Assembly: GCA_937863565.1 (NCBI GenBank)
Contig: CALMGJ010000019.1
Coordinates: forward strand, 1 to 37,491
Reading direction: 5' to 3'
DNA from: an uncultured bacterium
GTDB lineage: Bacteria; AUK180
DNA length: 37,491 bases
How positions within the stretch are numbered: position 1 is the first letter of the stretch; every line of letters begins with the position of its first letter. Positions 1-14,226 of this stretch are shown piece by piece. The notes under the pieces are model-generated. The model was not told where the DNA came from and did not search any database. It saw only the letters and a program-made list of their open reading frames with translations. A program made the translations under genes and the position numbers.

Positions 1-481
<481 letters not shown>

Positions 482-530
482 AAGGTTTTTTCGTCCCGAG
501 CCTTTCGCATTACATATTTTATTACCAAGG

Positions 531-604
531 GGGCCTCTAGCTCAGTTGGCAAGAGCGCGCGCCTGATAAGCGCGAGGTCAGTGGTTCAATTCCACTGAGG
601 CCCA
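531..604 (+). tRNA. tRNA-Ile (GAT)
   Basis: Acceptor GGGCCTC/GAGGCCC + discriminator A, anticodon GAT at 565-567, T-loop GGTTCAATTCC; CCA not encoded; usual ITS position. Confidence 0.98.
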
Positions 605-609
605 TTGTT

Positions 610-682
610 GGGGAATTAGCTCAGCTGGGAGAGCGACTGGTTTGCAACCAGTAGGTCACCGGTTCAAGTCCGGTATTCTCCA
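610..682 (+). tRNA. tRNA-Ala (TGC)
   Basis: Acceptor GGGGAAT/ATTCTCC with G3:U70 Ala identity pair, anticodon arm ACTGG-TTTGCAA-CCAGT (TGC 643-645), GGTTCAAGTCC; CCA not encoded. Confidence 0.98.
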
Positions 683-723
683 CTTGAACAATAATAGGAA
701 ATGATTTTTCATTTGGATATGAA

Positions 724-733
724 TGCTCTTTAA
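724..733 (+). promoter_or_regulatory. rRNA spacer antitermination boxA
   Basis: TGCTCTTTAA matches the boxA consensus TGCTCTTTAACA, just upstream of the 23S gene. Confidence 0.7.
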
Positions 734-746
734 TTATTAAATATAT

Positions 747-3713
<2,967 letters not shown>

Positions 3714-3743
3714 ATATTTTAATATATCGAAATATTTCGATTT

Positions 3744-3863
3744 ATCCCGGTGATCATGCAAAGGGGAAACACCTGTTCCCATTCCGAACACAGTAGTTAA
3801 GCCCTTTAGCGCTGATGGTACTGCCTGTCTCATCTGGGTGGGAGAGTAGGTCATCACCGGGAT
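3744..3863 (+). rRNA. rrf: 5S rRNA
   Basis: Terminal helix ATCCCGGTGAT/ATCACCGGGAT, CCCATTCCGAAC loop, GATGGTACTG and GGGAGAGTAGG motifs. Confidence 0.97.
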
Positions 3864-4689: not shown

Positions 4690-7368
4690 ATGAAGAAATC
4701 AGAAACCCGAAAAATTATTGCTCTGGAAAGTTTTGTGCCCCGCAAACTCCTTGAACTCAAACCGGACATTCATTTCGATTCTTTCGCCGGCGCCTTCATG
4801 GTGACGGATATTTCCGGTTTTACGAGGATGAGCGAAGCCCTCACGAAGATCGGTCGCGAAGGTGCCGAGGAATTGACGAAGATGATCAATTTCTACTTCG
4901 TTTCCCTCATTGACAATATCTATGAGCACGGCGGCTATATTTACCGCTTCGGCGGCGATGCCATATATGCTGTATTCGAAGATAAAAAAGGCACTGCTAA
5001 ACAAGATGCGCTCAATTCGGCTGGCAGTATTCAAAAATTCATCAAGAAACATCCCACGATAAAAACGAGCCAGGGCATGGCTTTCGGCATCAGCGTTCAT
5101 ATATCCATCACGTACGGAAAACTCTTCTTCCAGGACCTTAACAATGACTTCTTCATCGGAGGAAAGGTCGGTTTCCATGCGATGAATATCCTTGAGCATG
5201 CCAAAGCCGGCGATATCGTGTGCGACAGCTCCTTCGGCAGCGTGAAATCCGCTGTTTTTGAGAAGATCAAACCCAATGCCTATTTATTGAAGAAGATAAA
5301 GATTGCCGAAAAAGCCTCCGGTGAGAAAATCCCAAAATCAAGCAGGGATCCCGAACCATACCTCCCGGAATGGCTCAGGGAAAGGATCGACCTTAAGCCG
5401 CTGTTCAATGAAAAGGACGGCGAACATAAAAAGGTCGCGATTGGGTTCATTCACATCAACGGGATCGATTTCGACAAAAACCTTCAGAAGGCAGGCGAAC
5501 GGCTCTTCTCTCTTCACGAATACATTCAAGGCATCCTCAAGGACTTCGGCGGCTGGATCAATAAAATAGATCTTTACAAGGACAGCATACGCTATGTGAT
5601 CCTGTTCGGATTCCCGTTCTCTCACGAGGACGATGAAGTGCGCTCGGTCATCGCGGCCTTGAAGATCCTGAAGAGCAATAAGCTCAAGAATGTGGGGGTC
5701 AAGATCGGCCTTAACACCGGTCTTGCTTTCGGTGTTCCCGTAGGCTCAGACAGAAGAAGGGAGTATACGGTCATGGGCGATACAGTGAACCTTGCGGCAA
5801 GGATAGCCGCGGCAGTCCCGTACAATTCCATGTGGGTCTCGAAGACCCTGAAAGAAAAGACCGAACGCGTGATCGAATACGGCAAAAAAGCGGAAAAATC
5901 ATTCAAGGGGAAAAAGGACAAGCACATTATATTCGAAGCCGTGTCCCAGCAAGCCGAGGGCAGCAGGGAATCGCTGATCTCCGAATGGGTCTCGCAGAGC
6001 GATAAGCTTGTAGGCAGGGACAAGGAGATAAAGACATTCCTGAAATCACGGGACATGGCCAAGGACGGAAAAACAAGGATCTTCGGTGTAATGGGTGAAG
6101 CCGGAGTTGGTAAATCGAGATTCTCTGAAGAAATATTCAAGCTCACCAAGGAGGATTTCAGCACATATCTGGGCAGCTGTATTTCCTACGGCACCTCCCT
6201 CTCGTATTACCCGTTCATCGAGATCATCAATAAGATCGCGGATATCCAGCGCGAAGATACTCAGGATAAAAAGAAAGAGAAAATATCGGCGCTGATGAAG
6301 AAAGTGAATAAAAAATATACTGACTTTCTACCCATCCTCGGCGAAGTGCTTGGTCTCGATTTCAAGGAGACGGAGATCTCCAAATATCTTGATTCTAAGA
6401 TGAAGAAGGAGAATTTCTTCATGATGGTCGGGGATATGATGAAGTATATCGCCTCGAAAAAACCCACTATGATCGTATTCGAGGACATACACTGGATCGA
6501 TTCGCTTTCGCTTGAGCTTCTTCAGTATCTGACAAGGAACATCAAGGATAAAAAACTTCTCTTCCTTATCCTGTTCCGCCCGATAGAGAAAAAATACGAA
6601 TTCATGGAATACGATAATTTCGTACTGATACATCTCAAAGAACTATCCAAAGAGGATACCATCGAGCTCGTTTACAATCTCCTCAGCGTGAAAAAGATGT
6701 CGGACGAGATAAAGAACCTCATCGTCACAAAGTCGCAGGGTAACCCGTTCTATGTTGAAGAGATCATTAAATCCATGGTTGAACAGAAGATCATCCTCAA
6801 GGAAGGTAAGCACTACACGTTCAACGAGAAGATCAAAAAGATCAATATCCCCGATAATGTCGAAGGCGTTATCGTGGGCAGAATAGACCGCCTTGACCTG
6901 AAGGAACGCGATGTTCTGCAGACGGCATCGGTGCTGGGAAGGGAATTCGATGAAGACATCCTGAGGGGTATCTATAAGAATAACGATATACTGGACAACT
7001 CGCTTTCCGTCCTGTACAAGCTCGATCTCATCCGTCTTGATGAATCATCTAAAAGGCCGAAGTACTTCTTCAAGCACATCCTCACGAAAGAGGTCGCCTA
7101 CGATACGATGTCGTTCCAGAAGAAAAGAGAACTTCACGAGATGGCCGGTTCTTTCATAGAGAAGAAATACAAGGCCGGCATCGAGGAATTCTTCGGCATC
7201 CTTTCCTATCACTACTATGAAGCGAAAAAGTACGAGAAAGCAATGGTCTTCTCCGTGAAAGCGGGTGAAAAGGCGAAGAATGTCTACGCGAACTATGAAG
7301 CAATAGATTTCTTCACAAGAGCGATAGAATCGTATAAGGAACTGGAAAGGATATCGAAGAAAAAATAG
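4690..7368 (+). CDS. class III adenylate cyclase (tandem C1/C2, soluble-AC-like) fused to STAND/AAA_16 NTPase
   Basis: C1 metal Asp motifs TDISGFT and RFGGDA; C2 NKID and EYTVMGDTVNLAARI; LVGRDKE, Walker A GEAGVGKS, Walker B IVFEDIHWID, GNPFY, RIDRL, FFKH winged helix; only the first TPR-like helices before the stop. Confidence 0.93.
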   Translation: MKKSETRKIIALESFVPRKLLELKPDIHFDSFAGAFMVTDISGFTRMSEALTKIGREGAEELTKMINFYFVSLIDNIYEHGGYIYRFGGDAIYAVFEDKKGTAKQDALNSAGSIQKFIKKHPTIKTSQGMAFGISVHISITYGKLFFQDLNNDFFIGGKVGFHAMNILEHAKAGDIVCDSSFGSVKSAVFEKIKPNAYLLKKIKIAEKASGEKIPKSSRDPEPYLPEWLRERIDLKPLFNEKDGEHKKVAIGFIHINGIDFDKNLQKAGERLFSLHEYIQGILKDFGGWINKIDLYKDSIRYVILFGFPFSHEDDEVRSVIAALKILKSNKLKNVGVKIGLNTGLAFGVPVGSDRRREYTVMGDTVNLAARIAAAVPYNSMWVSKTLKEKTERVIEYGKKAEKSFKGKKDKHIIFEAVSQQAEGSRESLISEWVSQSDKLVGRDKEIKTFLKSRDMAKDGKTRIFGVMGEAGVGKSRFSEEIFKLTKEDFSTYLGSCISYGTSLSYYPFIEIINKIADIQREDTQDKKKEKISALMKKVNKKYTDFLPILGEVLGLDFKETEISKYLDSKMKKENFFMMVGDMMKYIASKKPTMIVFEDIHWIDSLSLELLQYLTRNIKDKKLLFLILFRPIEKKYEFMEYDNFVLIHLKELSKEDTIELVYNLLSVKKMSDEIKNLIVTKSQGNPFYVEEIIKSMVEQKIILKEGKHYTFNEKIKKINIPDNVEGVIVGRIDRLDLKERDVLQTASVLGREFDEDILRGIYKNNDILDNSLSVLYKLDLIRLDESSKRPKYFFKHILTKEVAYDTMSFQKKRELHEMAGSFIEKKYKAGIEEFFGILSYHYYEAKKYEKAMVFSVKAGEKAKNVYANYEAIDFFTRAIESYKELERISKKK

Positions 7369-7493
7369 TCCCTCCCGTCCGCCGGAAAGGACCGTCCGCC
7401 GCGGACCTCAATTATAAGGCGCTCTATGACCGCGCGCTTCTTTATCTTCTTATAGGGAAAAGCGGTCCGGCGCTTGCCGACGCCCGGAACTTC

Positions 7494-8993
7494 ATGACGT
7501 ACGCGCAAAGGAAAAGTTCGCCATCGCGTATCGCTCGCGCCCACTATCTTAATGCCCAGATATTCACAACCCTCTCCCGTTTTTCGGAGGCGCTCGACCA
7601 TATTTCCCTGGCTTACGGGCACTATAAAGGAACCGGCGCACGCAATCAGATGAGCAATTGCCTTATATTGAAAGGCACCGTATTCATGAGAAGCGGTCAT
7701 CACGATGACGCATACCGGGAGTTCATGAAAGCGCTCTCGATGTTCCGCAGCATACGCGATCTCCACAATATAGCCGCGACATATTCGAATATCTCCGTTT
7801 ACTTCCACGAGAAGTGGCAAAATGAAAAAGCCGTGAAGCTCACCGAAAAGGCCCTTGCCTATTTCCGTAAAGTGAATAATAAAAAGGAGATCCAGACTTC
7901 CCTTAACAATCTGGGCACATACTTCCAATATCTGGGAAAGTTCGAAGAATCGCTGGCGCATTTTGAAAAAGCCCTTGCTATTTCCACGGAGATAATGGAC
8001 CTAAATGCGGAGCATAGCATCCACTGCAATCTGGGGAGCCTGCTGCTTAACCGCGCTCTTTACGGTAAAGCGGAACAGCAATTCAGGATCGCGCTTGAAC
8101 TCTCTAAAAGAACGGACAACGCCAATTCCGAGGCGATTGCATGCCAAAATATCGGCAATGTGCGTTTCTATCTTTCCGATTATACGGGCGCCTCCGGCTT
8201 CTTCACCCGCGCTGCGCGAATATTCGAGACACTGGGAAATATGAGCGAACTGGTCTCTGTATACTCGAATCTCGGCGCCGTAAAATTGATGATCGGAGAT
8301 ATGGCCGGAGCGGCGAAGTACCTGGAAAGATCTCTTGAACTCGCCCTGAAAAGCGGTCTGAAGAATTATGCCGCAAGTACGCTGAACAATCTTTCCTTTT
8401 GCGTATTCTATACAGGCGATATCAAAAAAAGCATTGATTGTCAAAAAAGAGCTGTAAAGATCAATGAAAGCATCGGGGACAGGGAATCTCTCGCCTTTAA
8501 TTATAATGCTTTATCCCAGTTCCTTCTTGATTCGGGATTTTGCGAAAAAGCCATCGGTTTCTCCGACCGGGCGCTGAGGATAGCAACGGAGCTCGGACTT
8601 CAGCATAATCTTATGAAGATCTATGTTCAGAGGGCGAGATATCATCTTGCAACGGGGAATATCCCAAAAGCAGAACAGGATGCCGGGACGGCTCTGGAGA
8701 TGGCCTCTAAATTGAATTCGGCCAAGGACAGAGGTATCGTTAACTGCGTTCTCGGTGAGATCCTCCTCTCGAAAGGGCGGCTGCAGGCGGCCATAAAGAG
8801 GTTAAAAGCATCTCTATCTTCCTTGAAAAAGGTGGGGGATAAATATCACCTGGCCAGAGCCTGCTATTTTATGTCCGCGGCGCTTGCGAAGGCCGGGAAC
8901 GGGACAGAGAGCTCCGGTTTCAGAAGAATGAGCAAAAACTTTTTCGGGGCCATAGGCGGCATGTTCTGGTTTAAAAAACTCAATGGACGATAA
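7494..8993 (+). CDS. TPR repeat protein 1 (reading frame open and coding-like from 7338; first ATG 7494)
   Basis: Repeated NLG..Y...G.Y..A...F.KAL motifs (SLNNLGTYFQYLGKFEESLAHFEKAL, YSNLGAVKLMIGDMAGAAKYLERSL). True start uncertain. Confidence 0.88.
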   Translation: MTYAQRKSSPSRIARAHYLNAQIFTTLSRFSEALDHISLAYGHYKGTGARNQMSNCLILKGTVFMRSGHHDDAYREFMKALSMFRSIRDLHNIAATYSNISVYFHEKWQNEKAVKLTEKALAYFRKVNNKKEIQTSLNNLGTYFQYLGKFEESLAHFEKALAISTEIMDLNAEHSIHCNLGSLLLNRALYGKAEQQFRIALELSKRTDNANSEAIACQNIGNVRFYLSDYTGASGFFTRAARIFETLGNMSELVSVYSNLGAVKLMIGDMAGAAKYLERSLELALKSGLKNYAASTLNNLSFCVFYTGDIKKSIDCQKRAVKINESIGDRESLAFNYNALSQFLLDSGFCEKAIGFSDRALRIATELGLQHNLMKIYVQRARYHLATGNIPKAEQDAGTALEMASKLNSAKDRGIVNCVLGEILLSKGRLQAAIKRLKASLSSLKKVGDKYHLARACYFMSAALAKAGNGTESSGFRRMSKNFFGAIGGMFWFKKLNGR

Positions 8994-10374
8994 GATCTTC
9001 AAATTGTTCATTGCCGCTCTCAAGAACAGGGCTGCCGTTTACGAATTTACCGGAAACTACAAGGCATGTGTTGCGGATATACGGACAGGGATAACCGCTT
9101 TAGAACGAAGGAAAAGGCTGGATCCGGACGCCGTGATGGGCCTGAAGACGGACCTTGCGGACATGGCTCTTCATATGGAAGGGAACGTAAAGAAAGCGGC
9201 ATCTATATTGAATGAGGCGGAAAAAACGGTCCCGGGGATCTCCGGAGAAGCGGCCGCGTACAAGGACAATATTCTGGGCATCATCAGATGGCAAGAGGGG
9301 AGATTCGATGAAGCGCTGGCCTGTCTGGGCCGGACGCTTTCCTTCTATAAGCGGCGGGGCGAGAAGTCCGGGATATCAAATACTCTAAATAATATGGCGA
9401 TGGTGAGCGAGAACAAAGGCGACATTAAAATGGCCGTGAAATATCTGCGCGCTGCCCTTGATATACAGAAAAAAGTCAAGAACAAAAGAGGGATCTGCGT
9501 GATGTCCGTCAATCTCGGCAACAACCTTGTCTCTCTCAACCGTTATGAAGAAGCGGAAGCATATTTCAACGAAGTGATAAGGATCAGCGGACGTATCGGA
9601 TTTAAAAGAGCCGAAGGCCTCGCATCAAATGCATTGGGAGGGATGTATTCCAATAAGGGCGACCTGAAGCGAGCTCTCTTTTATTATGAGAAAAGCCTTA
9701 AAGTGGCGGAGGAAACGGGCAGTGCCCAGCGTACGGGTATAGCATATAACAATATCGCCATCGTTCACACACAAACGGGGAGATATGAAAAAGCGCTCGA
9801 ATACTATAAGAAGAATCTCGAGATATCGGAGAAGCTCGAATCGGACAATATGAGATCGTATTCCTATATCAATCTGGCTTCGGCCTGTCTCGATATGAAC
9901 ATGACGAAGGAAGGCGCTTTCTATCTCGGTAAAGCGGCCGGCATCGTCAATGCAAGCGGTAATAAGGCTCAACTTGTCGATGTGCATACGACATATTCAG
10001 ATCTCCACATCCGCCGCCGCGAATTCGGAAAAGCGCTGAAGCGCGCCGTTATGGCCTTGGAACTCACCAATGAGATCGGGCTAGAGGAGAGACGGCCCTT
10101 CGTTCTTCGGAACCTCGGGCTCTGTCAACTCCGTTTCGATAGAATGAAGGCGGAGGAATGTTTCATCCGGTCGCTGAACGTCGCGCTGAAGGCGGGGATG
10201 CTCCTTGACTCGGCCTATGCCGGTTACGAACTGGGAAAAATGTATTCGTTAGACAAAAGAAAGAAAAGGCAGGCCGCGAAATATCTTCAAGATGCCCAAA
10301 GCATTTTTGAAAAGAATGGAATAAAAATACATTCAAAAGAGATAAAGGGCATCCTGAAAAAACTTAAGCGCTGA
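8983..10374 (+). CDS. TPR repeat protein 2
   Basis: TPR motifs (SNALGGMYSNKGDLKRALFYYEKSL, YNNIAIVHTQTGRYEKALEYYKKNL); 11-nt overlap with the upstream gene. Confidence 0.92.
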   Translation: MDDKIFKLFIAALKNRAAVYEFTGNYKACVADIRTGITALERRKRLDPDAVMGLKTDLADMALHMEGNVKKAASILNEAEKTVPGISGEAAAYKDNILGIIRWQEGRFDEALACLGRTLSFYKRRGEKSGISNTLNNMAMVSENKGDIKMAVKYLRAALDIQKKVKNKRGICVMSVNLGNNLVSLNRYEEAEAYFNEVIRISGRIGFKRAEGLASNALGGMYSNKGDLKRALFYYEKSLKVAEETGSAQRTGIAYNNIAIVHTQTGRYEKALEYYKKNLEISEKLESDNMRSYSYINLASACLDMNMTKEGAFYLGKAAGIVNASGNKAQLVDVHTTYSDLHIRRREFGKALKRAVMALELTNEIGLEERRPFVLRNLGLCQLRFDRMKAEECFIRSLNVALKAGMLLDSAYAGYELGKMYSLDKRKKRQAAKYLQDAQSIFEKNGIKIHSKEIKGILKKLKR

Positions 10375-10662: not shown

Positions 10663-10698
10663 GAAAGCCGTTCTTTCAAAGAAAGCTGTTCTTTCAAA
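10663..10698 (+). repeat. 18-bp tandem repeat, two copies
   Basis: GAAAGCCGTTCTTTCAAA then GAAAGCTGTTCTTTCAAA (17/18 identical), about 30 nt upstream of the 10728 start. Confidence 0.85.
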
Positions 10699-10727
10699 GA
10701 TCGCTCAAAAAACAAAAGGAGGTTAAA

Positions 10728-11444
10728 ATGAAAAGATATTTCAGATCGTTTGCTTTAGTTTTATGTGCTATGTTCATTGTCTTCTCGGGCTGCTCCGAAC
10801 AAGCTGAGATGCCGACAGTACCCGCAGAGGGAAAGATGACCATCATTTCGCCTGCATCAGAAGATCGTGAATGCTCGACTTGGACGGAAGAAGAATTGAA
10901 TGAATATGCAGAGAGCATCCTGTCGGGTAGGAAGGAAGATTGTGTGCAGATTAAAAAGCTGATACAAGAAGATAAATGTTTCCGCAAATGGTTCAATACA
11001 AAGGTTCATAATGCATTAGAAACAGGAGAGATTATCCCGACATATCACAAAGAATGGATAAGGACGAAAATAAGTAATTATCTTCCGGAGAAAAGCAATA
11101 AAGACGGTAATGAACATTGCTTCAATGGAGATCAAGAAAAACTTACTGATTGGGTAATCACAATTCTCAGACGCGGAAATGCAGATGAAATTATTAATAA
11201 GGCTGAAAATAATCCCTGCTTTATAAAATGGCTTTCAATGATATCGGACATTCCGTTAAATCCGTATTTTGGGGGCGGGATCACTAAAGTTACTCTTGAC
11301 GAAATCCCCCTAAATTGGTTGAAATGTCCCCTTGTATGCCCCGAAGGAACATATTGCGTTGCATATATTCTTATAGTATATTATGAAAACAGGGATCCCA
11401 TAAGAACAGAACCCTGGTATGCATGCGACCCGATTTATATTTAA
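10728..11444 (+). CDS. Cys-rich lipoprotein of unknown function
   Basis: SD AAGGAGG; signal peptide ending FSGC; nine further Cys; internal duplication. Confidence 0.8.
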   Translation: MKRYFRSFALVLCAMFIVFSGCSEQAEMPTVPAEGKMTIISPASEDRECSTWTEEELNEYAESILSGRKEDCVQIKKLIQEDKCFRKWFNTKVHNALETGEIIPTYHKEWIRTKISNYLPEKSNKDGNEHCFNGDQEKLTDWVITILRRGNADEIINKAENNPCFIKWLSMISDIPLNPYFGGGITKVTLDEIPLNWLKCPLVCPEGTYCVAYILIVYYENRDPIRTEPWYACDPIYI

Positions 11445-11460
11445 CCGGGAGGTCATCATT

Positions 11461-12351
11461 ATGAAAAGATGGATAATATTGCTGGCAATACTATGCCTAT
11501 CATTCCCGATTGTAGCAGAAAAAATTACAATAGATGAGAATAAAGCCGAGATTGTTATCACCGACAATGTAATTCCTATTGTATATCGGGGCAGTACCTG
11601 CAGCGCGAAATTCTTTCCGGACACGATCCTGGAAATAACGAAGATATTTAAAAGAATAATCGAATATTATCCGGATGCAGATTTCAAGAAGATAAGCCAC
11701 CTCATTAACGAAGAAAACCCCATCATCATAGCTGAGATCGCGCCTGCTCCGGTCAGAGGGAAATATGGTTTAATTAAAGAATATAAAGGCGAACCGCTTA
11801 TGATGACCTCTATTATTTTCTATCATGTCAAAGGGATATTGGATATGAGTACCAGTTGGATGAATACAGATATTATTTTGTCGCACCTCATTTTATTCAA
11901 CGGGGATCTTGCATTATTCGAAAAGATGATATATGAATTCATCTCTTTTAACATTGCGTTGACCGAGGTTAAGGGGGCGCCATATAACCAGTATTACACC
12001 CTGTCGGAGTATTTCGATATGATCGAATTGCACAAGAAAGACATCCGATTTATAAGTGAAACGGACAAAAACGCAAGCGGCATCCTTGTAAATACCTATA
12101 TTCGCGGCAGTATCTTACCTGTTGTGCTCTATTTGCAGAAGGTTGGCAGTAAAGGATCTGATGAAATAATTGAAGTGCTGTTAAACGAATATCAAAGGCT
12201 AAATGCAAAAAAGAAAGTAAGGCAAAAAGATATCAGAGCTAGCCTTAACAGGATATTCGGGATTGACATTTGGCCAATAATGTTGGATTTTGAAAAATTC
12301 TGGGATGATAATAAAAACATACTTTGGGAACACATTTTAGAAGAATTATAA
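11461..12351 (+). CDS. exported protein, possibly a degenerate gluzincin/M1-like fold
   Basis: SD GGGAGG (11447-11452) favours ATG 11461 over 11419; signal peptide MKRWIILLAILCLSFPIVA. Confidence 0.75.
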   Translation: MKRWIILLAILCLSFPIVAEKITIDENKAEIVITDNVIPIVYRGSTCSAKFFPDTILEITKIFKRIIEYYPDADFKKISHLINEENPIIIAEIAPAPVRGKYGLIKEYKGEPLMMTSIIFYHVKGILDMSTSWMNTDIILSHLILFNGDLALFEKMIYEFISFNIALTEVKGAPYNQYYTLSEYFDMIELHKKDIRFISETDKNASGILVNTYIRGSILPVVLYLQKVGSKGSDEIIEVLLNEYQRLNAKKKVRQKDIRASLNRIFGIDIWPIMLDFEKFWDDNKNILWEHILEEL

Positions 12352-12530: not shown

Positions 12531-12553
12531 TACATACAACCTAAGGAGTTGTG

Positions 12554-13723
12554 TTGAAGGCCGTCAAGATCAAGGACAATGTTTACTGGGTCGGAGCCGT
12601 CGACTGGACACTTCGGAATTTCCACGGCTATGTAACGGAAAGCGGGTCCACCTATAATGCATATCTCATAACCGGTGAAAAGAATATCCTTATCGATACC
12701 GTAAAAGCGCATCTGTTCGAGGAAATGTCGGCCCGCATCAAAACGGTGATCCCTCTTGAAAAGCTAGATCTTCTCATTTCGAATCATGTGGAGATGGACC
12801 ATTCGGGAGGCATCCCGGAGCTTTTGAAGGCAGTCCCCGGGCTTAAGGTACTGACCTCTCCGCAGGGTGTGGCAGGTCTGAAACTCCACTACGGGGAAGA
12901 GCTGAACTGCGAACCGGCGCCTCCCGGCTACAAGCTCGATGCAGGCAGATACCGGTTCTCCTTTCTTCCGACGCCGATGGTACACTGGCCCGACAATATG
13001 CTTACATATCTCGAAGAGGAGAAGATACTATTTTCAAACGATGCTTTCGGACAACACTATGCCTCATCCGGACGCTTCGATGATGAAGTATGCCTCCACA
13101 AAGCGCTTGCCGAAGCTAAGAAATATTATGCGAACATCGTCCTTCCTTACGGCAAACAAGTGCGCGACGCGCTTGCGGCCGCATCGAAACTCGATATCAA
13201 GACCATCGCCCCGAGTCACGGCATCATCTGGCGCGGACAAATACCGGAAATACTAAAACGGTACGGGAAGTGGTCCGCCTATGAGAACGACGGGTCGGCC
13301 TGCATCGTTTACGATTCGATGTGGCATTCCACCGAGAAAATGGCCCGTGCGGCATATGCGGGTTTCGTAAGGGCCGGTATAAAAACGCGGATATTCGATC
13401 TGAAATGTGATCATATATCCAATATTATGACCGATGTCATGACGGCGAAATATCTGGCCGTGGGTTCGCCCACCCTCAACAATAATATGCTCCCGACTGC
13501 CGCGGCTTTTTTAACATATATGAAAGGGCTCGCCCCTCAGGGAAAAACGGTCTTTGCTTTCGGAAGCTACGGGTGGGGCGGACAGAGCGTCGCGCAGGTT
13601 GAAGAGATTTTCAAAGAGCTTAAATTTGAAACGCTACTGCCTGGGGTCCGCATCAAGTACATTCCGGGAGAAGAAGAACTAAAAAAGATAGAGAACGCCA
13701 TTTACGAAAAAATAAAAAAATAG
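12554..13723 (+). CDS. fprA: flavodiiron protein (A-type flavoprotein, O2/NO reductase)
   Basis: GSTYNAYLI, NHVEMDHSG, HWPD, FSNDAFGQH, APSHG, flavodoxin YDSMWHSTE and FGSYGWGG; TTG 12554 is better spaced from the SD than GTG 12551. Confidence 0.96.
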   Translation: MKAVKIKDNVYWVGAVDWTLRNFHGYVTESGSTYNAYLITGEKNILIDTVKAHLFEEMSARIKTVIPLEKLDLLISNHVEMDHSGGIPELLKAVPGLKVLTSPQGVAGLKLHYGEELNCEPAPPGYKLDAGRYRFSFLPTPMVHWPDNMLTYLEEEKILFSNDAFGQHYASSGRFDDEVCLHKALAEAKKYYANIVLPYGKQVRDALAAASKLDIKTIAPSHGIIWRGQIPEILKRYGKWSAYENDGSACIVYDSMWHSTEKMARAAYAGFVRAGIKTRIFDLKCDHISNIMTDVMTAKYLAVGSPTLNNNMLPTAAAFLTYMKGLAPQGKTVFAFGSYGWGGQSVAQVEEIFKELKFETLLPGVRIKYIPGEEELKKIENAIYEKIKK

Positions 13724-13731
13724 GAGGATAT

Positions 13732-14226
13732 ATGATCTCAAAAGAGATGGAAAAAACGATCAATGAACAGATCAAATTCGAGTTTTATTCGGGCTATGTG
13801 TATCTTGCCATGGCCGCATATTTCGATGCCAATGATCTGCCGGGTTTTGCCGCGTGGTTCAAAGCACAATCGCAGGAAGAGTACAAACATGCGATGCGTT
13901 TCTATGATTATGTCTATGAACGGGGCGGTAAAGTCGCACTTGAGGCCATCGATAAGCCGAAAAGCGATTATAAATCGCTCAAGGACATCATCGAGATGGC
14001 GCTCCATCACGAGGAAGCGGTCACCCGGCTCATATACAAGATGGTTGAACTTGCCCGCGAAATGAAGGATTATATGACGGAGAATATGCTTGCCTGGTTC
14101 GTTGCGGAACAGGTGGAGGAAGAAGCGAATATGCAGACCCTCTTGAACAGACTGGAAAGAGTGAAGGATTCCGGGAACGGACTTATCATGCTGGATAAAG
14201 AGCTCGGAAAAAGAAAGGAAGGTTAG
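13732..14226 (+). CDS. ftnA: non-heme ferritin
   Basis: NEQIKFEFYS..YLAMA, EEYKHAMRF, WFVAEQVEEE, LDKELG; SD AGGAGG. Confidence 0.95.
   Translation: MISKEMEKTINEQIKFEFYSGYVYLAMAAYFDANDLPGFAAWFKAQSQEEYKHAMRFYDYVYERGGKVALEAIDKPKSDYKSLKDIIEMALHHEEAVTRLIYKMVELAREMKDYMTENMLAWFVAEQVEEEANMQTLLNRLERVKDSGNGLIMLDKELGKRKEG

What the first reader, a model, noticed from the sequence alone, without database searches (positions are those of the whole stretch)
7335..7500. Candidate -1 frameshift joining the cyclase-STAND protein to TPR module 1
Seen: the cyclase ends AAG AAA AAA TAG (A6 at 7360-7365). The -1 frame is open from 7338 through the whole TPR1 gene and has no ATG until 7494. That upstream stretch reads ...NYKALYDRALLYLLIGKSGPALADARNF and aligns with the N-terminus of TPR2 (FIAALKNRAAVYEFTGNYKACVADIRTG), so it looks like real coding sequence. 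An SD-like GGAAAGG (7344-7350) lies 9 nt before the A run. GC-rich pairing follows it (GTCCGC 7377-7382 with GCGGAC 7401-7406; CCGTCCGCCG repeated at 7375 and 7392). Known: upstream SD + A-rich slippery site + downstream stem is the dnaX-type -1 frameshift layout. Inference: two products, an 892-aa sensor-less cyclase and a 1434-aa cyclase-STAND-TPR fusion. Alternatives are a homopolymer assembly error or a coupled non-AUG start at ATA 7365; G_AAA_AAA is also an imperfect slippery heptamer.
Basis: partly seen in the sequence, partly recalled or inferred. Interest (0 to 1): 0.8.

Follow-up and report, generated by a model that had tools for sequence, protein, structure and literature searches.

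The report
Start-less TPR gene after split cyclase
The place flagged as a programmed frameshift is the usual boundary between two separate genes of a split signalling enzyme, but in this genome the second gene has lost its normal start codon, so how its protein gets made is an open question.

Summary
The cyclase-STAND gene (4690-7368) ends AAG AAA AAA TAG. The -1 frame is open from 7338 through TPR1 and has no ATG, GTG or TTG before 7494. The stretch upstream of that ATG encodes the conserved N-terminal motif of the TPR partner family (E 2.4e-5). A complex model puts the interface on that stretch (0.75 against a best control of 0.18).

The dnaX-type reading is not supported. I examined 161 related loci. 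Of these, 44 end the cyclase gene at this same spot and 5 are fused. In 33 of the 44 a TPR gene with the motif follows, in frame 0, -1 or +1 (12, 11 and 10 loci). In 32 of the 33 it has its own start codon, sometimes as an ATGA overlap. Only the window lacks one.

The predicted hairpin is no better than shuffled sequence (z -1.5). Rfam finds nothing at the junction.

Best reading: a family-typical split operon whose TPR1 start was lost. TPR1 would then be made at low level by ribosomes finishing the cyclase gene, either restarting at AUA 7365 or slipping -1 on the A run. A lineage-specific frameshift is not excluded (about 0.2). No reads could be obtained to test A6 against A7.

The parts
4690..7368 (+). 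Cyclase-STAND core gene (892 aa, P0001): class III cyclase domain plus an AAA_16 P-loop NTPase. It ends in two conserved helices (VYANxEAIxFFTRAIESY) and a Lys-rich tail.
   Evidence: Guanylate_cyc E 6e-10, AAA_16 E 1.9e-18; about 900-aa homologues without TPR.
7344..7350 (+). SD-like GGAAAGG inside the codons for L-E-R. It lies 9 nt before the A run and 14 nt before ATA 7365.
   Evidence: The genome does use SD (51-53% of starts against 14% of random coding positions) with a preferred spacer of 5-8 nt, so this spacing is poor for de novo initiation at 7365.
7360..7368 (+). A6 run (7360-7365) followed directly by the TAG stop (7366-7368). This is the only place where a -1 slip could join the two frames.
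   Evidence: The same AAA AAA TAG end occurs in L050 and L054, where the TPR gene is in frame 0 with its own ATG.
7365..7367 (+). ATA codon of the TPR1 frame overlapping the stop (ATAG). It has the same geometry as the ATGA start/stop overlaps of L061/L124, L065 and L099.
   Evidence: ATGA overlaps occur in 221 of 1422 adjacent same-strand gene pairs in this genome.
7375..7401 (+). 10-nt direct repeat CCGTCCGCCG (7375-7384 and 7392-7401; 17-nt period) in a GC-rich linker that resembles no relative's linker.
7377..7406 (+). Predicted hairpin, not significant.
   Evidence: -14.9 kcal/mol, z -1.52, 15 of 200 shuffles as good.
7338..8993 (+). TPR1 open frame (-1 relative to the cyclase gene). The first canonical start is ATG 7494. 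The conserved N-terminal docking motif is encoded at 7407-7484.
   Evidence: TPR_12 E 1.6e-44; interface residues 19-39 of P0002, which is nt 7392-7454.
8983..10374 (+). TPR2, a second TPR partner gene with its own ATG and the same N-terminal motif. Its start overlaps the end of TPR1 by 11 nt.
   Evidence: (motif i-E 6.4e-8).

Best explanation
Position 7366 is the normal end of a stand-alone cyclase-STAND core gene. TPR1 is the first of two separately encoded TPR sensor subunits. Each is expected to dock, through its N-terminal helix, onto the last two helices of the core, replacing the covalent link seen in fused relatives. In this clade the TPR gene normally has its own start within a few to about 150 nt of the core gene's stop, and it can lie in any frame. 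In this genome the linker has been remodelled: it is GC-rich, carries a 17-nt-period repeat, and is 41 nt long against 42 nt in the nearest split relatives. No canonical start is left. The docking helix lies upstream of the first ATG, so full-length TPR1 can only come from ribosomes that reach the AAAAAA-UAG end of the core gene. I favour termination-coupled restart at AUA 7365 (AUAG, the geometry of AUGA overlaps), giving a separate protein at low yield. Some unprogrammed -1 slippage on the A run next to the slowly decoded stop would add a little 1434-aa fusion. Shown here: the gene boundary, the family pattern and the coding status of 7407-7484. Modelled: the interface. Inferred: which event initiates TPR1, and its yield.
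For: Family pattern: of 161 loci examined, 44 are split at this spot and 5 are fused. Of the 44 split loci, 33 have a downstream TPR ORF with the N-terminal motif, in frames 0/-1/+1 = 12/11/10, and 32 of the 33 have ATG, GTG or TTG at or before the motif. Starts overlap the stop as ATGA in L061/L124, L065 and L099. L052, L075 and L079 have almost identical cyclases but frames +1, 0 and -1. In the protein database, 53 of the 56 closest homologues (39-46% identity) are 865-966 aa and carry no TPR family. L050 and L054 share TC[GA] GAG AAA AAA TAG and have 42 nt between the stop and the AAT TAT of the motif; the window has 41 nt. The N-terminal motif is encoded upstream of ATG 7494 (E 2.4e-5). 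Complex model of P0001 residues 700-892 with TPR1 residues 16-300: score 0.75, best of 3 controls 0.18. This mark was reached by 58 of 80 solved complexes and 2 of 110 mismatched pairs. The three runs agree in at least 98% of contacts, and the partner pLDDT is at least 90. The interface is core residues 848-885 against TPR1 residues 19-39, plus 220-223 and 258-261. These are halves of a gene that is fused elsewhere and my own alignments were used, so the pass may only reflect likeness to intramolecular TPR stacking. The genome couples genes heavily: 221 ATGA, 35 GTGA and 22 TTGA overlaps among 1422 adjacent pairs. The assembly looks sound: ORFs of 100 aa or more cover 93% of it, with a mean of 379 aa. 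Only 14 junctions have a start-less open leader of 60 nt or more, and only this one has an A run. AUA initiates at 1-2% of AUG in E. coli (0.02-3% across constructs; passages of bioRxiv 10.1101/063800).
Against: AUA is a very weak start, and the SD-like motif is 14 nt away, whereas this genome prefers 5-8 nt. No case of AUA restart was shown here. The ATA codon follows automatically from AAA + TAG, so its position is not independent evidence. The nearest clade in the quick tree contains fused forms (L068, L090), so the ancestor could have been fused and the present state could be a 1-nt deletion. TPR2 has no obvious SD and overlaps the end of TPR1, which would fit better if TPR1 were well translated. 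The window sits on a long branch (1.36), so its placement is unsure. The profile used was built from 20 of the loci it then scored, and several loci are close kin, so the 33 are not independent.
Confidence: 0.45

Rival explanations
1. A selected, lineage-specific programmed -1 frameshift at G_AAA_AAA_UAG (a shifty stop, perhaps helped by the upstream SD-like GGAAAGG). It would give a set ratio of the 892-aa core to a 1434-aa core-TPR1 fusion.
For: No canonical start precedes the conserved docking helix. The A6 run sits directly before a stop codon, and the -1 frame is open across it. The SD-like motif is 9 nt upstream. In a reporter, a 7-A run A_AAA_AAA gave 10% frameshifting, and G_AAA_AAA is among the consensus heptamers of predicted frameshift clusters (passages of PMC3711429). 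Slow-to-decode A-site codons favour slippage (passages of PMC5009743). Fused relatives exist, so the fusion product would be functional.
Against: No conservation: 0 of the 32 other TPR-bearing split loci need a shift, and the frames are 12/11/10. L050 and L054 have the same A6-TAG end without any frame change. The hairpin is not significant and begins 11 nt downstream. There is no Rfam frameshift element. There are only six A's, with G in front. In E. coli A_AAA_AAA is much less shift-prone than A_AAA_AAG (PMC5009743). The SD-like motif is coding sequence of a conserved tail, and its spacing differs in L042 and L045.
Confidence: 0.17
2. TPR1 is no longer made in full. Either it starts at ATG 7494 without its docking helix, or it is a fresh pseudogene after loss of its start, and TPR2 is the working partner of the core.
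For: Of the 44 split loci, 11 have no motif-bearing TPR gene directly downstream (2 of them because the contig ends), so the partner is often lost or encoded elsewhere. In L045/G003 the TPR frame has an in-frame TAG where L042 has CAA. TPR2 has an intact ATG and the motif. A weak GGAA lies 4 nt before ATG 7494.
Against: The 551-codon frame is fully open. The motif upstream of 7494 still matches the family (E 2.4e-5) although this lineage sits on a long branch, so any loss would have to be recent. The complex model puts the main interface (residues 19-39) in the part that a Met53 start would drop.
Confidence: 0.2
3. A 1-nt indel error or minority strain variant in the assembly. The true sequence would have A7 (one fused 1434-aa gene, like the 5 fused relatives) or differ in the repeat-bearing linker.
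For: Homopolymers and short repeats are the commonest sites of consensus indels. Fused forms occur in the nearest clade. This is a metagenome-assembled genome of 38 contigs.
Against: Genome-wide ORF integrity is high, and no other junction of this type has an A run. The zero-frame TAG directly after the A run, and the tail TCG AAG AAA AAA TAG, match L050 and L054, where this is the true stop. Under A7 that match would be a coincidence. It could not be tested directly: no sequencing run was listed and no other contig holds the junction.
Confidence: 0.1

Closest known systems
E. coli dnaX -1 programmed ribosomal frameshift (A_AAA_AAG with an upstream SD and a downstream stem-loop)
   Same: A Lys-codon A run, an SD-like motif about 10 nt upstream, a GC-rich pairing downstream, and a -1 frame open across the site.
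   Different: The site is G_AAA_AAA, not A_AAA_AAG. Here the zero frame stops at once and the -1 frame is the long one, the reverse of dnaX. The hairpin is not better than shuffles and is placed 11 nt away. There is no conservation among orthologues and no Rfam match.
Translationally coupled overlapping gene pairs (ATGA/TGATG; termination-reinitiation, PMC6728339)
   Same: A same-strand pair encoding subunits of one complex, with stop and putative restart codon sharing bases (AUAG against AUGA). The genome and several orthologous loci use ATGA overlaps.
   Different: The overlapping codon is AUA, not AUG, GUG or UUG, and the SD-like motif is too far upstream.
Fused class III cyclase-STAND(AAA_16)-TPR proteins (1300-1480 aa; MalT-like TPR sensor region)
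   Same: The same domains in the same order. The C-terminal helices of the core and the N-terminal helix of TPR1 correspond to adjacent helices of the fused proteins.
   Different: Here, and in 44 of 49 members of this clade, the TPR part is a separate gene. Often there are two or more such genes in tandem (15 of the 46 motif-bearing loci, out of 97 scanned).
Frame transitions at adjacent genes whose homologues are fused elsewhere (a false-positive class in the GeneTack survey, PMC3711429)
   Same: An apparent frameshift between two ORFs that are one gene in other genomes.
   Different: The downstream ORF here lacks the start codon that normally marks such pairs.

Membership tests
dnaX-type programmed -1 ribosomal frameshift | Slippery heptamer X_XXY_YYZ in the zero frame (A_AAA_AAG in dnaX) | tested here: inconclusive
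   The sequence is G_AAA_AAA (7359-7365) followed by TAG. Only the A-site or last P-site Lys codon can re-pair perfectly. G_AAA_AAA is listed among consensus heptamers in PMC3711429, but no efficiency is given for it.
dnaX-type programmed -1 ribosomal frameshift | Upstream internal SD at a stimulatory distance | tested here: inconclusive
   GGAAAGG lies 9 nt before the A run and the organism uses SD. However, the motif encodes the conserved L-E-G/R tail, and in L042 and L045 it abuts the A run.
dnaX-type programmed -1 ribosomal frameshift | Stable downstream stem-loop or pseudoknot about 5-9 nt after the shift site | tested here: not met
   The hairpin 7377-7406 starts 11 nt after the run. It folds at -14.9 kcal/mol, z -1.52, and 15 of 200 shuffles are as good. 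There is no comparable structure in L042 or L055. The 5-9 nt spacing is recalled knowledge.
dnaX-type programmed -1 ribosomal frameshift | Shift site and frame relation conserved among orthologues (criterion of PMC3711429) | tested here: not met
   Frames are 12/11/10, and 32 of 33 TPR genes have their own start. Near-identical cyclases have +1, 0 and -1 partners.
Known RNA frameshift elements (Rfam) | Match to a curated covariance model | tested here: not met
   Region 7250-7550 gave 0 matches at E up to 10.
Termination-reinitiation coupled gene pair | [quoted passage not shown] | tested here: inconclusive
   The geometry is met (AUAG), but the codon is AUA. No ATG, GTG or TTG occurs before 7494.
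STAND NTPase with TPR sensor (AAA_16 / MalT-like) | P-loop NTPase domain plus a C-terminal TPR superhelix | tested here: met
   AAA_16 E 1.9e-18 in P0001. TPR_12 E 1.6e-44 and TPR_MalT E 5.7e-19 in TPR1. The two parts are on separate genes.
Class III nucleotidyl cyclase | Cyclase homology domain | tested here: met
   Guanylate_cyc E 6e-10 at residues 246-410. Catalytic competence was not tested.

The most novel reading that the evidence does not exclude
In this one lineage a 'shifty-stop' -1 slip at G_AAA_AAA_UAG has replaced the lost start codon of the TPR1 sensor gene. The cell would then make both a free cyclase-STAND core, available to the separately translated TPR2 sensor, and a core covalently tied to TPR1. 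The slip rate would set how the core is shared between the two alternative sensors. More widely, the A-rich linkers of this family would be the place where fused and split forms interconvert.
Probability: 0.2. Interest if true: 0.7.

Novelty: new variant of a known kind. Interest (0 to 1): 0.38.

Why it matters
A real frameshift here would be a rare chromosomal, non-mobile case in which recoding sets the ratio between a free signalling core and a sensor-fused one. What the data do show is more modest. A whole clade of uncultured bacteria (records titled WOR-3, Cloacimonadota, TA06, Stahlbacteria) has split the cyclase-STAND-TPR protein into a core plus one or more detachable TPR sensor subunits. 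The subunits share a conserved docking helix, and fusion and fission have recurred. That makes exchangeable sensors for a STAND switch a testable idea. It also warns that apparent frameshifts at such boundaries are usually plain gene boundaries. The window is the one locus in which the sensor gene has no start, so it is a natural test case for how much expression coupling alone can give.

Tried and rejected
- Raw reads: the look-up of sequencing runs listed no run for 6900-7900, so A6 against A7 could not be tested and read laying was not used.
- Independent assembly: an exact-pattern scan of metagenome contigs across the junction, allowing A5-A8, found 0 stretches.
- Close relatives: none exist in the databases searched. 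The best homologue of the core is 46% identical. DNA similarity in kin is limited to two short patches. No dN/dS test or junction comparison at short distance was therefore possible.
- TPR1 against 1.84 billion representatives: only generic TPR proteins at 34% identity or less, mostly long multi-repeat proteins. This says nothing about fused or separate ancestry.
- Composition profile: no GC break at the junction, so there is no sign of a foreign TPR cassette.
- Rfam at a permissive threshold: nothing.
- Earlier notes of this scan: none near the locus. The 8 notes on other pieces of the genome do not bear on it.
- TAG read as sense: rejected, because the zero frame after 7368 gives no TPR-like sequence and stops again near 7453.
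- The 17-nt repeat as the cause of the frame change: removing one unit would put TPR1 in frame 0 but still behind the TAG and without a start. This is suggestive of linker remodelling only.
- The careful tree search did not finish. The tree cited is the quick IQ-TREE one, with SH-aLRT support only.
- Supplementary tables of PMC3711429, which list heptamers and efficiencies, were not available.
- One row of alignment A2 (L145) starts 10 codons upstream of its ATG because I slipped on a coordinate. This does not affect the first sequence, which is the one that was folded.


Full report
**1. What is in the sequence**

The ORF 4690-7368 encodes an 892-aa protein with a class III cyclase domain (Guanylate_cyc, E 6e-10) and an AAA_16 STAND NTPase domain (E 1.9e-18). 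It ends AAG AAA AAA TAG, with the A6 run at 7360-7365 and the stop at 7366-7368.

The -1 frame is open from 7338 (after TAA at 7335-7337) to 8993. It encodes a TPR protein (TPR_12 E 1.6e-44, TPR_MalT E 5.7e-19). Its first ATG, GTG or TTG is at 7494. A second TPR gene, TPR2 (8983-10374), has its own ATG, which overlaps the end of TPR1 by 11 nt.

**2. The stretch upstream of ATG 7494 is coding**

I built a profile from the first 50 residues of 20 homologous TPR genes that have their own start codons. It hits the 52-residue piece 7338-7493 with E 2.4e-5, at residues 24-49 (nt 7407-7484). Among all six-frame pieces of the window, only the complete TPR2 and TPR1 frames score better.

The family consensus is roughly LLIxALxGRAEVYxLIGKxxxALxD, and the window reads LNYKALYDRALLYLLIGKSGPALAD. 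BLASTP aligns TPR1 from residue 28 with TPR2 from residue 12 (23% identity, E 8e-14).

In the homologues the start codon lies 0-24 nt before the motif. In the window that region (about 7383-7404) holds no start codon.

**3. What the family does at this junction**

The closest database homologues of the core (39-46% identity; source names include candidate division WOR-3) are 53 of 56 proteins of 865-966 aa without any TPR family. Three are fused (1230-1459 aa). The 51 listed relatives at 33% identity or less (P0072 onward) all carry TPR families and are 1311-1485 aa long.

In the 9 genomes of the phylum, the orthologues have open frames of 880-968 aa where they are complete, while paralogues at 26-33% identity are mostly fused.

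I then fetched 80 loci from species-representative genomes and 80 from metagenomes and scored every junction with one script. The 161 loci (these 160 plus the window) break down as follows:

| Class | Loci |
|---|---|
| No strict C-terminal motif (paralogues and others) | 108 |
| Duplicates | 3 |
| Runs off its contig | 1 |
| Fused | 5 |
| Split (stop within 30 residues after the FFTRAI motif, as in the window) | 44 |

Among the 44 split loci:

- 33 have a downstream ORF carrying the N-terminal motif, in relative frame 0 (12 loci), -1 (11) or +1 (10).
- 11 have none, 2 of them because the contig ends.
- In 32 of the 33 an ATG, GTG or TTG lies at or before the motif. The window is the only exception.

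Examples of the start arrangements are TAG-ATG (L058), TGA-cct-ATG (L064, which is also the G001/G004 form) and ATGA overlaps (L061/L124, L065, L099).

Three loci with almost identical cyclases (L052, L075, L079; terminal branches 0.07 or less) have their TPR gene in frames +1, 0 and -1.

Caveats:

- The profile was built from 20 of the loci that it then scored.
- Several loci are close kin.
- The strict pattern dropped L057, which had an ATG 5 nt before the stop.

The even spread over frames, together with own start codons, means the TPR gene is translated independently of the core's frame. A conserved frameshift site does not exist in this family.

**4. The other A-run loci**

L042 (G005) and L045 (G003) end GGG/GGC AAA AAA TAA with the TPR frame at -1.

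- L042 has TTG 14 nt after the first base of the stop. So does L055, where a -1-frame TAA just upstream rules out any slip.
- In L045 the TPR frame carries an in-frame TAG and the contig ends 112 nt later.

L050 and L054 lie in the clade nearest to the window in the quick tree. They end TC[GA] GAG AAA AAA TAG, which is 14 of 15 nt identical to the window's TCG AAG AAA AAA TAG. Their TPR gene is in frame 0 with an ATG 12 nt after the first base of the stop. The distance from the stop to the AAT TAT of the motif is 42 nt in both and 41 nt in the window.

So the A6-TAG end is an ordinary stop in this subclade, and the window differs by a 1-nt shorter, unrelated, GC-rich linker that has no start. 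That linker contains the 10-nt direct repeat with a 17-nt period. Such repeats occur at 0.11 per kb in the genome (252 in 2.27 Mb), so one located here points to local remodelling. This is inference.

**5. Frameshift signals**

- The best fold of 7366-7415 is a hairpin at 7377-7406 (-14.9 kcal/mol). It has z -1.52 and 15 of 200 shuffles fold as well. Longer stretches are even less distinctive (z -0.64 and -0.17).
- The hairpin starts 11 nt after the run.
- Rfam has no match at the junction at E up to 10.
- The organism does use SD: core 4-mers occur before 51-53% of starts against 14% of random coding positions, with a preferred spacer of 5-8 nt. The 16S tail ends ...GGATCACCTCCTTA.
- GGAAAGG could therefore pair with the ribosome. 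But it is simply the coding sequence of the conserved L-E-G/R tail, and its spacing to the A run is not kept in L042 or L045.

From papers, of which I saw only passages:

- A 7-A run A_AAA_AAA gave 10% in a reporter. G_AAA_AAA appears among consensus heptamers. A programmed-frameshift cluster is defined by a conserved site. Adjacent genes that are fused elsewhere are a known source of false calls (PMC3711429).

**6. Assembly quality**

No reads could be obtained, and no other contig holds the junction.

Indirectly, the assembly looks sound. ORFs of 100 aa or more cover 93% of the genome, with a mean of 379 aa. Among 1422 adjacent same-strand pairs, only 14 have a downstream frame that is open across the upstream stop with its first start 60 nt or more away. 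Only this one has an A run. Systematic homopolymer errors are therefore unlikely, although a single error cannot be excluded.

**7. Why the missing start matters**

I folded the last 193 residues of the core with TPR1 residues 16-300, using alignments of 53 and 22 rows. The result is as follows:

- The score was 0.75 against a best control of 0.18.
- This mark was reached by 58 of 80 solved complexes and by 2 of 110 mismatched pairs.
- The runs agreed in at least 98% of contacts, and the partner pLDDT was at least 90.
- The confident interface is core residues 848-885 (the conserved helices ...KAGEKAKNVYANYEAIDFFTRAIESY) against TPR1 residues 19-39, plus 220-223 and 258-261.

Residues 19-39 are encoded at 7392-7454, entirely upstream of Met53.

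These are halves of a protein that is fused in relatives, so the pass may only reflect likeness to intramolecular TPR stacking. It supports binding but does not show it. It does agree with the sequence conservation: a TPR1 that starts at 7494 would lack its docking helix.

**8. How it most likely works**

The core and its TPR sensors form a split STAND switch. The TPR subunit supplies the repeat that is adjacent to the core's last helices in fused relatives. In 15 of the 46 loci with the motif (97 loci scanned), two or more TPR genes carrying the motif lie at the locus, nearly always in tandem downstream of the core gene. This suggests alternative sensors for one core (inference).

In the window, TPR1 has no start of its own, so ribosomes must arrive from the core gene. 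The genome uses 4-nt stop/start overlaps in 278 of 1422 pairs (221 ATGA, 35 GTGA, 22 TTGA). The window's AUAG has the same geometry, with AUA in place of AUG. AUA supports 1-2% of AUG initiation in E. coli (0.02-3% across constructs; passages of bioRxiv 10.1101/063800).

Alternatively, peptidyl-tRNA-Lys on AAA 7363-7365, facing the UAG, could re-pair with AAA 7362-7364 and continue with AUA GUC..., giving the 1434-aa fusion. Both routes would give low yields.

My estimates are:

| Reading | Probability |
|---|---|
| Split-gene boundary with a lost start and non-programmed, termination-linked expression | 0.45 |
| Truncated or freshly dead TPR1, with TPR2 as the partner | 0.20 |
| Selected lineage-specific frameshift | 0.17 |
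| Indel error or strain variant | 0.10 |
| Unassigned | 0.08 |

**9. Comparison with what is known, and novelty**

The site resembles dnaX only in having an A run, an SD-like motif and a GC-rich pairing. It fails the tests for structure and conservation (see the membership rows).

It is closest to a translationally coupled pair of subunit genes produced by gene fission (PMC6728339; I saw the abstract and passages), but with a non-canonical overlapping codon.

The cyclase-STAND-TPR family is known as fused proteins. One literature search on cyclase, STAND, TPR and AAA_16 (search listing only) turned up no description of the split form with docking TPR subunits. That single search is weak grounds for saying the split form is not in print.

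I file the finding as a new variant of a known kind, of moderate interest. The frameshift itself remains an untested possibility specific to this genome.

Noticed in passing
window 1-3862: The window opens with an rRNA operon: the 16S 3' part (1-481, cut by the contig end), tRNA-Ile(GAT) 531-604, tRNA-Ala(TGC) 610-683, 23S 747-3715 and 5S 3746-3862. The cyclase operon starts about 830 nt after the 5S gene.
   Followed up: partly
window 4690-5409 (P0001 residues 1-240): The N-terminal 240 residues have no Pfam family above threshold, only a weak GGDEF hit (E 0.019). They do carry invariant D40, G43-F44-T45 and G89-D90 across 53 homologues. From memory, these resemble the metal-binding motifs of class III cyclases. 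This may be a second, divergent cyclase-fold domain forming a pseudo-heterodimer with residues 246-410. I did not test this.
   Followed up: partly
L038-L099 and L118-L152 (97 loci): In 15 of the 46 loci that have the N-terminal docking motif, two or more TPR genes carry it. In 13 of them the extra gene follows the first downstream of the core gene; in L054 and L064 it lies upstream of the core gene. The window's TPR1+TPR2 pair is this recurring three-gene layout, which may mean alternative sensors for one core.
   Followed up: partly
L068, L069, L090, L118, L128 versus their split neighbours: Fused and split forms are interleaved in the quick tree. L069 (fused) and L065 (split, ATGA overlap) come from the same MAG and are sister genes. 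Fission and fusion seem to have recurred, and the linkers are Lys/A-rich.
   Followed up: partly
L011/L045 (G003:C106), about 90 nt after the core gene's stop: The TPR frame has an in-frame TAG where the sister locus L042 has CAA, and the contig ends 112 nt after the stop. This is either a decaying TPR gene or a poor contig end.
   Followed up: no
L010/L040 (G002:C3): Here the core gene is followed not by a TPR gene but by a small ORF with an ArsR-like HTH signature (by eye) and then a fused 1271-aa cyclase-STAND-TPR paralogue.
   Followed up: no
window 12551-14226: A flavodiiron-type protein (ODP metallo-beta-lactamase fold plus flavodoxin, 390 aa) is followed by a ferritin-like protein (164 aa). 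The ORFs at 10728-11444 and 11419-12351 have no Pfam family.
   Followed up: no
window 10670-10700: A 13-nt exact direct repeat GTTCTTTCAAAGA at 18-nt spacing lies in the AT-rich gap after TPR2.
   Followed up: no
window 7384-7391: A second copy of GGAAAGGA (the first is at 7344-7351) lies 6-9 nt before codons GCC 7398 and GCG 7401. This is where homologues have their start codon. It may be the remnant of a lost SD plus start (GTG to GCG would be one change). This is pure inference.
   Followed up: no
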